Assembly: GCF_009914755.1 (NCBI RefSeq)
Contig: NC_060925.1
Origin: the human T2T-CHM13v2.0 reference genome, Homo sapiens
Direction: 5' to 3' (one strand)
DNA: 64,000 nucleotides
A program made the position numbers and the translations under genes. The first letter of the stretch is position 1, and each line of letters starts with the position of its first letter. Below are positions 45,823 to 58,701 of the stretch, piece by piece. The notes below the pieces were generated by a model, which saw nothing but the letters and a program-made list of their open reading frames with translations, ran no database searches and was not told the DNA's origin.

Positions 45823-45997
45823 ATGGTGGTATCAGCCGGCCCTTGGTCCAGCGAGAAGGCAGAGATGAACATTCTAGAAATCAACGAGAAATTGCGCCCC
45901 CAGTTGGCAGAGAACAAACAGCAGTTCGTAAACCTCAAAGAGAGATGTTTTCTAACTCAACTGGCCGGCTTCCTGGCCAACCGACAGAAGAAATACA
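45823..45997 (+). CDS. NBPF: NBPF unit 1, first coding exon (exon 45788-45997, ATG at 45823)
   Basis: Acceptor ttctccccAG at 45787; [10 protein letters not shown]...NRQKKY; donor ACA|GTAAGA. Confidence 0.92.
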
Positions 45998-46544
45998 GTA
46001 AGATCTATAGGCTCACCGTCATGAAAGTGATGAATGATGTCCTGTCTTCTCTCTGAGACACTAAATGCTCTCTCCATCAAAAATAATTTCATCCTTCCTG
46101 TACTTCTAGGAAAACAGAAATGGGTATTTTAACATTTTGTTAAAGTTGGAAGACAGAGGTACCAAAGTATTTAGCAACTTTCCATGTTTGCAATCAGATG
46201 GGGGTGGGACTAGAGTTAAACTCACAGTTATTGATTTCTAACACAGGCACAGAACGACCTGTTTTCTCCAAGAGGCTCAATCATGTTTTCAAGAATCCTC
46301 TCTGTACCATATAAGATCCTGCAGACAAATAACATGTAGTCTGTTGTTCTAAATGTCTAGGACTAGTGAACTTTTATTCAGTTCAAGTTTCTGTTGAGGC
46401 CCAACAGGCAAAGCTCTGTTCTAGTGACTCTGAGGGGAACTTGGTGATAGTACCCAGTACCTGCTCTGAGGGGCTTCAAGAGGAGTCTGCTCCTAATAGA
46501 ACCTGTGCTATCTATAAGTGACAGCATCAAGAGCAGGGAGTAGG

Positions 46545-46871
46545 GGCCGTGCAACATGGCTCACTCCTGTAATCTCAGCACTTTGGGAGGCTGAGGCGGG
46601 CAGAGCACAAGGTCAGCAGTTTGAGACTAGCCTGGGCAACATGGAGAAACCCCATCTCCACTAAAAATACAAAAAGTAGATGGGCATCGTGGCGGGCAAC
46701 TGTAATCACCACTAATCGGGAGGCTGAGGCAGAAGAATCCTTTGAACCCAGCAGGCAGATGTTGCAGTGAGCCAAGATTGCACTATTGCACTCCAGCATG
46801 GGTGACAGGGCAAGACTCGTCAAAAAACAAACAAAACAAAAAGATAAATAAATCAAAAATAAAAATAAAAA
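46545..46871 (+). mobile_element. Alu in the first intron of each NBPF unit (copies at 52897-53223 and 59246-59565)
   Basis: Same insertion site in all three units. Confidence 0.88.
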
Positions 46872-47843
46872 GCAGAGAGTAGCTTGGTGAGAGTGAAGTC
46901 CTGCTTCCTGGTGCACAGGCTCTTGTTCCTAAAGAGGAAGAAAGATCACACCCGAGAATGTGTGGAAGCAGCAGTGCAGTGTGCAAAGCAGGGACCCTCA
47001 GCCTGTCTCCTGGGCTCCATCCAAGTTCCTTGTCTTGTCTGTCCCTCAGTTTCCTCATCTGTTCAGAGGGTACTACAATAATACCTACCTCTGTAAATTG
47101 CTGCAATGAATTACATGAGGCATTTCCTGTCAATCTCCTTGAACATTAATTGGCACAGTGTAAACACTATCTATTAGTTCTTCATTCTGATGTTTCTAAA
47201 TTAACACAAACTAATCTTATGCTGTTTCTAAATTAACACAACGAATCTAAATCTTAATGCTGCCTCTCATACTAATAAAGTATTTGGGCATATTTCCTTC
47301 ATGGCCTTATTGTCTTATGTCTCACACTTTATGCTTCAGATATGATTCTTAAAACCATATCTGAATATTGATTTAAAAATGAAATATTTTTAAAGTCCTT
47401 GACATATTTGTCCTTGAAATACCCAGTAAAAGGGAAACCATCAGTCCCATAGTCCTAGGGACCTTCCCGACTGTACAAGAAATCACTACTTCATGCCCCA
47501 GTGCAGTGTTTTAGAGGAGAGGCTGCAAGGCTTGGGAAAGTGGCCCCGCATTCAGAGTCAGACCTCAGGGGCTGTGAGTTCTGACTCCGCTTCGTTGTGG
47601 TTGAATCATCTTGTCAACTTCCTTGACGCGCCCTTGAGTTTCTCTTTCTTCGTCTTTAAATTTTGGAGGATCAGATGCCAGAAAGTCAGGAGACTGAAGA
47701 GTAAAGATGTGGAAATCCCTGTCTAGACCCTGGTACTGGGGAGAGTTTTGTCCTTGGGATGGACCTGGCTCCTGCCCTGTAGGCAGTGACCACAGCAGCA
47801 TGTCCAGCCTTCCACTGAGGCAGGCGTGTCTGTCTTTTCTCAG

Positions 47844-47946
47844 AGTATGAAGAGTGTAAAGACCTCATAAGATTTATGCTGAGGAATGAGCGACAGTTCA
47901 AGGAGGAGAAGCTTGCAGAGCAGCTCAAGCAAGCTGAGGAGCTCAG
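47844..47946 (+). CDS. NBPF: NBPF unit 1 coiled-coil exon (103 nt)
   Basis: ttttctc[46 protein letters not shown]; donor AG|GTGAGG. Confidence 0.92.
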
Positions 47947-48775
47947 GTGAGGGGAACCCGTAGGGGGAGGCAGGCGGGTAGGTGTGTAGATCTCTGAAGT
48001 ACAGCAGCTCGGCGGGGAGAAGTAAGAATGAAGCTGGGCCAGGGGAAGGGCAGAAATTGCCATGGCAGGCTCATGACACACAAATATTTATCAGAGAACA
48101 AGGATAATAATAAGTTCTGTGTTGCAGTTGTTTCTTAGAGCCTTGTTTTCTCTTTTTCAAACAAGTAATTGTTGAGGTGAAATTTACATAACACAAAATT
48201 CACCAAAGGAGTGGGAACCACCCAGCAGCATTCAGTATAATCAAAATGGTGTGCTATCGCCACCCCACTTACCCTTAGTGAGAATCACCTTCTGACTGAC
48301 TGCGTCTTCTCATTCTTTCACTCAATCAATGTTGCCTTCTTGACCCTGTCATTCTTTTCTTCTTTCATCTTTTCAATTCGCCCCATCTGCACCTGGCCTC
48401 ATTTCTGTACATGACTTTGTATCTAGTGGCCGCAAGATGCACTATGTGTATTTTCACATGGAAATGTCCATGGCCAGAGTGAGGAACTGAAAGGATGTCT
48501 TTGAAATGGAATTAGGAAGACACCTACTTTTGTTTACAGAAGAGAAAGATGAATGGAACATCATCGAGGATCTTGCAGGAGCCCTCTCTGATACAGGGAA
48601 AGCCTGTAGACCATTTTCTGTTCTTTCTCTTGGCCACAGACATTCCTTTCAACATGTGCTGACCTTCTGCTTGAAGGTCTCCTTGTGAACATTGTCTCAG
48701 AAATCTCTGTTGCAATATTTGAACGGATCACTCAACCCTTTCTACTCTTAAATTTTCTCTACCATCTCACCTTAG

Positions 48776-56392: not shown

Positions 56393-56465
56393 AAAATGAC
56401 GAAGATGAGGATGAAGATGTTCAAGTTGAGGAGGATGAGAAAGTGCAGAAATCATCTGCCCCCAG
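56393..56465 (+). CDS. NBPF: NBPF unit 2 small Olduvai exon (73 nt) with mutated acceptor
   Basis: Copy of 50041-50113, including the AG>AA acceptor change (position 56392). Confidence 0.75.
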
Positions 56466-56928
56466 GTAACACTGAATACTCAGGAGCAAGTAATGGGTGG
56501 TAACATATGAAAATGTCTAGGAGGCACACCCTCTCTGGCATCTATGGTGGACCAAAAGCCCGCATCCCCTTGGCCACAGTATGTGAAATTGAACCCAGCT
56601 TAGACACAGGGTGCGGCAGCTGTCGTGTTTCTCTATGTGTGCCAAGTGTCATGTCTGTACCATACAGGGATAGCTGAGTCTTCATCCTCCTCAGCTCCTA
56701 TCTGTCCAGTGCACTGAATACCAGCTGCTCTCTTCCTCTCTGGCTCCCATGGCAGCCATGGTCTGTTGCAGAGAGAAGAGGATTGCCTGTTTCCTCTTTA
56801 AGGGAACCTCCATTTTGCTTTCTGGAACCACTCTCTTAATGCCACCTGTCAAAACCAGCTAGGACTCCCTGGGGTCCAATCCCTCTGTGTTTAATCTTCT
56901 GTCATCTCTGTCCCACCTGGCTCATCAG

Positions 56929-57140
56929 GGAGGTGCAGAAGGCTGAAGAGAGCAAAGTCCCTGAGGACTCACTGGAGGAATGTGCCATCACTTGTTCAAA
57001 TAGCCACGGCCCTTGTGACTTCAACCAGCCTCACAAGAACATCAAAATCACATTTGAGGAAGACGAAGTCAACTCAACTCTGGTTGTAGACAGAGAATCC
57101 TCTCATGATGAATGTCAGGATGCTCTAAACATTCTCTCAG
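56929..57140 (+). CDS. NBPF: NBPF unit 2 large Olduvai (CON1) exon (212 nt)
   Basis: Copy of 50577-50788 with TCC>TTC (S>F, 57021) and a silent TTC>TTT (57055). Confidence 0.9.
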
Positions 57141-58491
57141 GTAGCCTCTATTTTCCTTGTGTCTCATACCTCTGTCTAGGCTATGGAAGATTAATTCTGA
57201 GGACAGGCTGTATATACACATATTGTTATTGTTTTAGTCAGAAACTAGGATGGAGCTAGGTGCTGTGACTCACACATATAATCACAGCACTTTGGAAGGC
57301 CCAAGTGGGACGATGACTTGAGTTCAGGAGTTGAAGACCAGCCTGGACAATATGGTGAAACCCATCTTTACAAAGAATACAAAAAATTAGGCAGGCATGG
57401 TGCTGCATGCCTATAGTCCCAACTGCTCAGGAGACTTAGGTGGGAGGATCGGCTGAGACGATCCTCCCACGCTCGTTCACTCCTCTCAGGCTAGACTCTC
57501 TCTCCTTTTCATTGGCTTGTCTTAGCTATTAATAAGAAGTCTCGGCCTGGCGCGGTGGCTCACACATGTAATCCGAGCACTTTGGGAGGCCGGGGCGGGT
57601 GGATCACGAGGTCAGGAGATCGAGACCATCCTGGCTAACACGGTGAAACGCCGTCTTTACTAAAAATACAAAAAAAAAAAAAAAATTAGCTGGGCGCGGT
57701 GGTGGGCGCCTGTAGTCCCAGCTACTCAGGAGGCTGAGGCAGGAGAATGGCATGAACCCAGGAACCGGAGCTTGCAGTGAGCCGAGATTGTGCCACTGCA
57801 CTCCAGCCTGGGAGACAGAGCGAGACTCCATCTCAAAAAAAAAAGTAAGTCTCTGACCAGGGGCGCTGGCTCACATCTTAATCCCAGCACTTTGGGAGGC
57901 TGAGGTGGGCAGAACACCTGAGGTCAGGAGTTCGAAACCAGCCTGTCCAAGATGGCGAAACCCCATCTCTACTAAAAATACAAAAATTAGCTGGCATGTT
58001 ACTTGGCGCTTGTAATCCCAGATGCTTGGCAGGCTGAGGGATGAGAATCGCTTGAACCCGGGCGGCAGAGGTGGCAGTGAGCTGAGATTGTGCCTCTGCA
58101 CTGCAGCCTGCACGACAGAGTGAGACTCCGTCTCAAACAAAAAACAAAAAACCAAAAAAGAAAAAAATTAAAAAAGCAAAATGAAATCTTTTGTGCTACA
58201 CAGAAACATTGGCCACTCATGGGGTAAAAATCTCAGGGCCAAGCCTTGCTTTATAGAAACTTATAAGCAAGAAAAGTGTAGAAGTGTTTATGTCCTGGTT
58301 TCAAGGTGACTGCATAGCTGAGACAAGTTGACTTAAAGGAGATCAAGACTGGAGATGACAAGAGTGAAACCAGGGAAACATCATCTTCAAATAAGTAAAC
58401 AAGGCTGCCAGTGACATCCCTCAGTCCTGATTAAGCCTATTTGATTTCACCAGTTTTTAACCCATCATGTGTTTGCCTTTCTTCTCCCCAG

Positions 58492-58701
58492 TCCCTGGCC
58501 CCACCTCTTCTGCCACAAACGTCAGCATGGTGGTATCAGCCGGCCCTTTGTCCAGCGAGAAGGCAGAGATGAACATTCTAGAAATCAATGAGAAATTGCA
58601 CCCCCAGCTGGCAGAGAAGAAACAGCAGTTCAGAAACCTCAAAGAGAAATGTTTTCTAACTCAACTGGCCGGCTTCCTGGCCAACCGACAGAACAAATAC
58701 A
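58492..58701 (+). CDS. NBPF: NBPF unit 3 exon 1 (210 nt)
   Basis: [22 protein letters not shown]...[32 protein letters not shown] intact. Confidence 0.9.

What the first reader, a model, noticed from the sequence alone, without database searches (positions are those of the whole stretch)
45916..58619. Very recent 6352-bp tandem duplication adds a whole coiled-coil+CON1 unit
Seen: the offset is a constant 6352 with no indels, even across Alu poly(A) tracts. Only three substitutions were noticed by eye (45944/52296, 50669/57021 S>F, 50703/57055), whereas unit 3 differs at many sites. Human Olduvai expansion is usually discussed for HLS triplets; this is instead a young expansion of the N-terminal CON1 module, probably copy-number polymorphic (inference).
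Basis: partly seen in the sequence, partly recalled or inferred. Interest (0 to 1): 0.7.

Follow-up and report, generated by a model that had tools for sequence, protein, structure and literature searches.

The report
Recent NBPF8 repeat-unit duplication, broken splice-site
The human gene NBPF8 carries two almost identical 6.35-kb copies of its first protein module, likely made by a recent unequal exchange of a kind this gene family undergoes repeatedly; both copies lack a normal splice signal, so the extra module is predicted to reach the protein only in altered form, if at all.

Summary
Observation confirmed exactly: 45916-52279 equals 52268-58631 at offset 6352 with 3 substitutions and no indels. 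The extra copy is one five-exon coiled-coil+CON1 unit of NBPF8 (813 nt, in frame). It arose in place: A and B share 17 sites absent from 22 other units, and the junction maps to 12 bp (52268-52279) inside a hybrid exon. Only two differences postdate the split, suggesting roughly 0.02-1.1 Myr. The protein gain therefore depends on a cryptic in-frame AG 12 nt downstream or on exon skipping (untested). The event type is ordinary for NBPF: this genome holds genes with 1, 2 and 3 units, several with hybrid units; gorilla models show equally young copies; variable CON1 number is published. The CHM13 domain total (8) equals the published GRCh38 count, so the third unit is probably not CHM13-private. 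Polymorphism is plausible but untested. New member of a known kind; modest interest.

The parts
45916..52267 (+). Copy A of the 6352-bp repeat: 3' part of coding exon 1, exons 47844-47946, 48776-48990, 50041-50113, 50577-50788, the following intron and the 5' part of the next exon 1
52268..58619 (+). Copy B of the repeat (identity to A continues to 58631); exons 54196-54298, 55128-55342, 56393-56465, 56929-57140
52268..52279 (+). Duplication junction interval: last unit-C-type site 52267, first unit-A-type sites 52280-52281 (52281 T is private to A and B); 52296 is C-type again, a patchy tract ending before 52342
52140..52349 (+). Hybrid first exon of unit B (5' part unit-C type, 3' part unit-A type)
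50039..50040 (+). AA in place of AG at the acceptor of the 73-nt CON1 short exon, copy A
   Evidence: only 2 of 34 homologous acceptors in the genome are AA
56391..56392 (+). Same AA acceptor in copy B
50051..50052 (+). First downstream AG (exon would start 50053; 56405 in B), in frame, removes 4 codons; candidate cryptic acceptor, untested
50577..50788 (+). CON1 long exon of A, Pfam Olduvai positions 18-68 (E 3.4e-18); carries A-private 50703 C
56929..57140 (+). CON1 long exon of B, Pfam Olduvai (E 3.7e-17); carries B-private 57021 T (S>F)
58492..63413 (+). Unit C, the old last coiled-coil+CON1 unit (exons 58492-58701 to 63208-63413) with an intact CAG acceptor at 62671
45823..45997 (+). First coding exon of NBPF8 (ATG at 45823); the duplicated stretch starts inside it at 45916
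   Evidence: hub annotation

Best explanation
This is a real 6352-bp tandem duplication of NBPF8's first coiled-coil+CON1 unit, likely produced in the last few hundred thousand years by an unequal homologous exchange between exon 1 of the old last unit (C) and exon 1 of the first unit, and both copies carry an AG>AA acceptor change that is predicted to prevent normal splicing of the short CON1 exon. Steps: a two-unit NBPF8 ancestor accumulated 17 private changes in unit 1, including the acceptor change (shared sites shown, order inferred). Misalignment of unit 1 with unit C at their about 95% identical first exons, with exchange in 52268-52279 and patchy repair up to 52296, gave A, hybrid B, C (junction shown, exchange inferred). 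One substitution then distinguishes each copy (shown). The mRNA most likely uses the in-frame AG 12 nt downstream (4 codons lost per copy) or skips both CON1 exons in frame, with a share skipping only the 73-nt exon and meeting a stop after codon 217 (all predicted).
For: Exact offset and 3 mismatches. Clean C-to-A switch in one exon. 17 A+B sites absent from 22 of 22 other units, except one site covered in 19. A and B are sisters at 100/100 in a 13-unit tree of segment 49041-52063. GT at 45928-9/52280-1 in only 2 of 24 genome matches; AA acceptor in only 2 of 34. Same exchange type elsewhere: the middle units of 3 of 3 other three-unit genes are U3-to-U1 hybrids and 3 of 3 fetched one-unit genes are the reciprocal U1-to-U3 hybrids, at several breakpoints. 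CHM13 NBPF8 has 3 CON1 + 5 downstream domains = 8, equal to the GRCh38 table entry of 8 domains with 1 triplet (PMC4053653). An NBPF9 isoform that lacks the CON1 exon pair in frame exists in UniProt (P0022).
Against: Homology at the junction is short: 12 bp perfect, longest nearby perfect run 48 bp, below the 300-500 bp usually quoted for human NAHR (recalled), which also fits a replication template switch. The two A/B differences lie 34 bp apart (about 1% by chance), unexplained. The date assumes no gene conversion between A and B and is only an upper bound if A and B came from two homologues. The selected RefSeq mRNA is placed with the full 73-nt exon at the AA site (hub annotation), so a haplotype with AG, or non-canonical use, is not excluded. 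No RNA or read data were examined. 9 of 30 other units were not compared at full length.
Confidence: 0.7

Rival explanations
1. Replication-based template switch (FoSTeS/MMBIR-like) using the 12-bp identity within imperfectly matching first exons, rather than a meiotic crossover; same product.
For: Only 12 bp of perfect identity at the junction and 48 bp at best nearby; the two differences are clustered.
Against: The junction is in exact register between paralogous exons with no inserted or lost bases. A C-type base at 52296 beyond the switch looks like heteroduplex repair. Reciprocal deletion-type hybrids exist in paralogs.
Confidence: 0.15
2. NBPF8 was an old three-unit gene like NBPF12 or NBPF1, and its middle unit was overwritten by a long gene conversion from unit 1, so the identity is young but the copy number is old.
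For: Three-unit genes are common (4 in this genome) and conversion patches are visible across NBPF units.
Against: The tract would need to be exactly one period long and include the intron and exon-1 5' part in front of C. Old middle units switch type at about 48.3-49.0 kb equivalent, B switches in exon 1. Over 45916-52063 the two closest units to A come from two-unit genes (98.2% and 98.0%). The sister gene NBPF9 has two units in its RefSeq protein.
Confidence: 0.08
3. False duplication or polishing artefact of the assembly.
For: Near-identity (99.95%) is where assemblers err; reads were not examined here.
Against: A and C share at most 127 bp exactly anywhere and 12 bp at the junction, too little for a long-read graph to loop without reads that hold the junction (inference). 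Each copy has its own private substitution. The source is a haploid mole line (recalled). The independent CHM1-based GRCh38 count is also 8 domains.
Confidence: 0.03
4. The extra unit was imported from another NBPF paralog by ectopic exchange.
For: Large templated replacements between NBPF8 and NBPF9 are reported (PMC12350169; 10.1101/2024.12.19.629504).
Against: The best paralog unit is 98.2% identical versus 99.95% for A/B. The GT and AA markers occur nowhere else in the genome.
Confidence: 0.02

Closest known systems
NBPF 5' repeat (coiled-coil exons + CON1 doublet) copy variation; three-unit NBPF1 and NBPF12
   Same: Same five-exon, 271-codon module and the same hybrid middle unit. Variable number of 5' repeats among paralogs is stated in PMC2386287 (passage) and variable CON1 number in PMC13028154 (passages) and PMC9313022 (passages).
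   Different: Much younger (2 differences in 3023 bp versus 49-88 between units 1 and 2 of the other three-unit genes), breakpoint in exon 1 instead of near exon 3, and a destroyed CON1 acceptor in both copies.
Olduvai HLS triplet expansion (about 4.7-kb blocks in NBPF10/14/19/20)
   Same: Intragenic tandem gain of Olduvai-coding exon blocks in a human NBPF gene.
   Different: Different module (N-terminal, 6.35 kb, conserved CON1 clade), a single added copy, and not human-specific in kind: gorilla models with identical units 1 and 2 and macaque models with up to 5 units; species-specific CON expansions are noted in PMC11956922 (passage).
Complex structural variants at the NBPF8 locus (930-kb DEL-INV-DEL; 513-kb NBPF9 replacement; CHM13-type haplotype at 13.7%)
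   Same: Same locus, segmental-duplication-driven instability (PMC12350169 and 10.1101/2024.12.19.629504, passages).
   Different: Those events are 100-fold larger; the passages seen do not mention a 6.35-kb intragenic unit or the acceptor change.
CON1 copy-number variation measured by ddPCR (56-88 diploid copies)
   Same: This duplication adds one genomic CON1 copy of the kind counted (PMC3961203, passages).
   Different: The assay does not resolve gene or splicing competence; its probe has 2 mismatches to A, 3 to B and 0 to C.

Membership tests
NBPF coiled-coil+CON1 5' repeat unit | Olduvai domain (PF06758) in the long exon of a short+long exon doublet at the N-terminal position | tested here: met
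   Pfam hits in A, B and C long exons, profile 18-68 of 68; doublet 73+212 nt
NBPF coiled-coil+CON1 5' repeat unit | 271-codon period matching other NBPF proteins | tested here: met
   813 coding nt per unit; unit starts at residues 1/272/543 in NBPF1 and NBPF12 proteins
NBPF coiled-coil+CON1 5' repeat unit | Coiled-coil structure of exons 1-3 | not tested
   Taken from the literature; no fold prediction run
NBPF coiled-coil+CON1 5' repeat unit | Canonical GT-AG splice sites on all five exons | tested here: not met
   Acceptor of the 73-nt exon is AA in A and B; the other 8 acceptors (A exon 1 at the annotated 45788 start) and all donors of A and B are canonical; 32 of 34 homologous acceptors are AG
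Unequal homologous exchange (NAHR-type) tandem duplication | Junction in register between two directly oriented paralogous repeats, giving a hybrid copy | tested here: met
   C-type to A-type switch at 52268-52279
Unequal homologous exchange (NAHR-type) tandem duplication | Several hundred bp of uninterrupted identity at the breakpoint (threshold recalled) | tested here: not met
   12 bp at the junction, 48 bp best nearby; this describes present-day alleles
Unequal homologous exchange (NAHR-type) tandem duplication | Reciprocal deletion product at the same breakpoint | tested here: inconclusive
   Deletion-type hybrids exist in three paralogs, but at their own breakpoints; other NBPF8 alleles not available
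Polymorphic human copy-number variant | Alleles with different unit number at this locus | not testable with these tools
   Only one human assembly is held. Indirect and conflicting: two-unit RefSeq mRNA versus equal domain count in GRCh38
False duplication (assembly artefact) | Absence of spanning reads or halved read depth | not testable with these tools
   No reads; indirect evidence against

The most novel reading that the evidence does not exclude
The N-terminal coiled-coil+CON1 module is an active accordion in living humans, with NBPF8 gaining and its sister NBPF9 losing a unit on this haplotype, and NBPF8's two young copies are splice-defective. Part of the CON1 dosage linked to autism and schizophrenia severity would then be intragenic unit variation, and some counted copies would make no intact CON1 protein or would push NBPF8 mRNA into decay.
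Probability: 0.3. Interest if true: 0.5.

Novelty: new member of a known kind. Interest (0 to 1): 0.3.

Why it matters
It gives a base-level example of how CON1 number changes inside a gene, and a warning that genomic CON1 counts need not equal protein dosage. It also shows that the RefSeq model of NBPF8 is placed over this assembly by skipping one whole unit and using a non-canonical acceptor, which matters for variant calling and expression estimates of a gene reported as nearly fixed in copy number (PMC13639854, passage). The kind of event is known, and no function of the extra unit is shown.

Tried and rejected
A whole-unit DNA search of the genome returned only two 94-95% loci because few candidates were scored; short patterns were used instead. 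Two protein searches returned no entry named human NBPF8, and none of the 113 proteins carried the NBPF8-private motifs FVNLK, LIRFML or NILSV; the 31 further proteins were not scanned for them. NBPF8 is probably hidden in a 90% cluster, so protein-level unit number and acceptor use could not be read. The idea that the RefSeq alignment proves the B alleles in the mRNA was rejected: an mRNA with ancestral bases at both sites ties between A and B. The idea that NBPF8's gain and NBPF9's loss are reciprocal products was rejected: breakpoints differ (exon 1 versus about 48.3-49.0 kb equivalent) and the gained unit has NBPF8-private sites. Counting 45944/52296 as a post-duplication mutation was rejected: B has the unit-C allele 16 bp from the junction. 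Upstream AGs at -44 and -35 and the +17 AG all give frameshifts (the two upstream starts were off by one and are superseded). Nine paper searches found no description of this 6.35-kb duplication or the acceptor change. The per-domain hg38 BED file of PMC5556342, the supplements of PMC4053653 and PMC13639854, bioRxiv supplements and PMC6944415 could not be read and may bear on novelty and on the GRCh38 unit count; the readable supplements of PMC12350169 had no hit.
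Full report
Observation. At offset 6352 the window matches itself from 45916 to 52279 with three substitutions and no gaps; self-BLAST shows the same diagonal and a weaker one at 12704 to a third unit, 91% over 5176 columns. Homopolymers of 16 and 10 nt are equal in A and B, and the pair of lengths differs in 4 of 4 paralog units checked.

What is duplicated. One period holds five NBPF8 exons of 210, 103, 215, 73 and 212 nt (813 nt, 271 codons). With all annotated exons joined the frame is open for 799 aa in the window, against 528 aa for the two-unit path of the selected RefSeq transcript. The long exons of A, B and C match Pfam Olduvai positions 18-68; the short exon supplies the domain's N-terminus according to PMC5556342 (section 17 read). 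Downstream of the window five further long Olduvai exons were found, giving 3 + 5 = 8 domains. The GRCh38 table of PMC4053653 (passages) lists NBPF8 with 8 domains and 1 triplet. The simplest reading is that GRCh38 has the third unit too; this is an inference from a count, and 2 CON1 plus an extra HLS domain would give the same total.

Junction and origin. In a three-way alignment B equals C at all 11 informative sites up to 52267, equals A at 52280-52281, equals C at 52296, and equals A from 52342 onward. The exchange therefore lies in 52268-52279 with a short patchy tract behind it. A genome pattern search found 33 unit starts: four genes with three units, five with two, eleven with one. I compared 21 of the 30 non-window units at full length. 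A and B share 17 sites found in none of 22 other units (21 paralog units plus C; one site covered in 19), and are sisters at 100/100 in a tree of 13 U1-type segments; U3-type and hybrid segments were left out of the tree. The closest paralog unit is 98.2% identical, against 99.95% for A/B. The copy was thus made in place. At 50669 B alone has T, at 50703 A alone has C: one change per copy. Two differences in 6364 bp give 314 kyr (38-1135) at 0.5e-9 per year or 157 kyr (19-568) at 1e-9 (rates assumed). Conversion would bias this low, and origin from two homologues would make it an upper bound. The two sites are 34 bp apart, about a 1% coincidence, which I cannot explain.

The splice defect. In A and B the intron before the 73-nt exon ends in TAA; in C it ends in CAG. 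Genome-wide, 32 of 34 homologous acceptors are AG and only these two are AA. The change therefore preceded the duplication, or is shared by both donor alleles. Computed outcomes: skipping the 73-nt exon gives a stop after 217 aa with at least ten exons downstream, a likely NMD target; the first downstream AG (+12) keeps frame and removes four residues ahead of the domain (791 aa open); skipping both CON1 exons in both copies keeps frame (609 aa); AGs at -44, -35 and +17 frameshift. An NBPF9 isoform without the CON1 pair of its second unit is in UniProt (P0022), a precedent for in-frame skipping. My estimate, a judgement only: in-frame rescue dominant 0.55, decay dominant 0.35, other 0.10. Against the prediction, the RefSeq transcript is placed with the full exon at 56393 (hub annotation), which could reflect an AG allele or a forced alignment.

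Family context. Painting 23 units with 217 sites that separate first-type from last-type units shows the same process elsewhere: the middle units of 3 of 3 other three-unit genes are last-to-first hybrids switching at about 48.3-49.0 kb equivalent, and 3 of 3 one-unit genes examined are first-to-last hybrids with different switch points. Those middle units differ from their own unit 1 at 49-88 of about 3010 sites, against 2 of 3023 here. The gene at 147.84 Mb matches the NBPF12 protein with 0 differences over the first 240 aa of each of three units; the gene at 145.74 Mb has a 100% identical upstream flank at the matching distance, matches NBPF9 unit 1 in the first 150 aa (0 differences) and NBPF9 unit 2 in the next 90 (2 differences), so it is likely NBPF9 with one hybrid unit where the RefSeq protein has two. 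Among predicted primate proteins, 4 of 4 three-unit gorilla models tested have units 1 and 2 identical over 255 aa, and macaque models have up to five units; these are gene models, not verified haplotypes.

Mechanism. Most likely an unequal homologous exchange between the first exons of unit C and unit 1 in a two-unit gene (0.70). A replication template switch (0.15) cannot be separated from it by sequence alone, since only 12 bp are perfectly shared at the junction. Full-length conversion of an old middle unit (0.08), artefact (0.03) and import from a paralog (0.02) fit worse, for the reasons given under rivals.

Literature. Seen as passages: PMC13028154, PMC3429928, PMC4053653, PMC3961203, PMC9313022, PMC2386287, PMC12350169, 10.1101/2024.12.19.629504, PMC13639854, PMC13261667 and its preprint PMC11956922, PMC10475015, PMC12847811, PMC13238051; PMC5556342 as abstract, passages, sections 10 and 17 and three supplements (one searched, two read). 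They establish variable CON1 number per gene, CON1 copy variation of 56-88 in people, species-specific CON expansions in apes, and large structural variants at the NBPF8 locus. Nine searches found no account of this duplication or of the AA acceptor; the library lacks most subscription papers, and several supplements were unreadable.

Verdict. It is a new instance of a known, recurrent NBPF event, probably already present in the older reference. The added value is the mapped junction, the shared dead acceptor and the apparent unit loss in NBPF9. Polymorphism and protein effect remain untested. Interest 0.3.

Noticed in passing
L054 (G000:C1:145732900-145740300): Likely NBPF9: a single first-to-last hybrid coiled-coil+CON1 unit in this genome, whereas the RefSeq NBPF9 protein has two units; suggests a unit deletion allele.
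   Followed up: partly
window 50653-50678 and 57005-57030: The published CON1 ddPCR probe has 2 mismatches to A and 3 to B (B's private S>F change lies under it). Genome-wide 14 of 30 sites found have 0-1 mismatch and 16 have 2-3, so the assay may weight unit types unequally.
   Followed up: partly
L043 and L041 (16.219 Mb unit 1 versus 16.048 Mb unit 2): 99.83% identical over the 3-kb CON1-side segment although they occupy different unit positions in different NBPF1-like copies: recent conversion or rearrangement at 1p36.
   Followed up: no
L045, L048, L039: Kilobase-scale conversion patches of the other unit type inside otherwise uniform units.
   Followed up: no
window 50669-50703 / 57021-57055: The only two true A/B differences cluster within 34 bp in the CON1 long exon; an NBPF26 unit has a third allele (G) at the first site.
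   Followed up: partly
window 507-2003 versus 33249-36121: Older 73-86% identical direct repeats about 33-34 kb apart; not examined.
   Followed up: no
hub annotation, NM_001037501.5 over window 48990-56393: The selected transcript skips exactly five exons (one period) and enters at a non-canonical AA acceptor, so the gene model does not fit this haplotype cleanly.
   Followed up: partly
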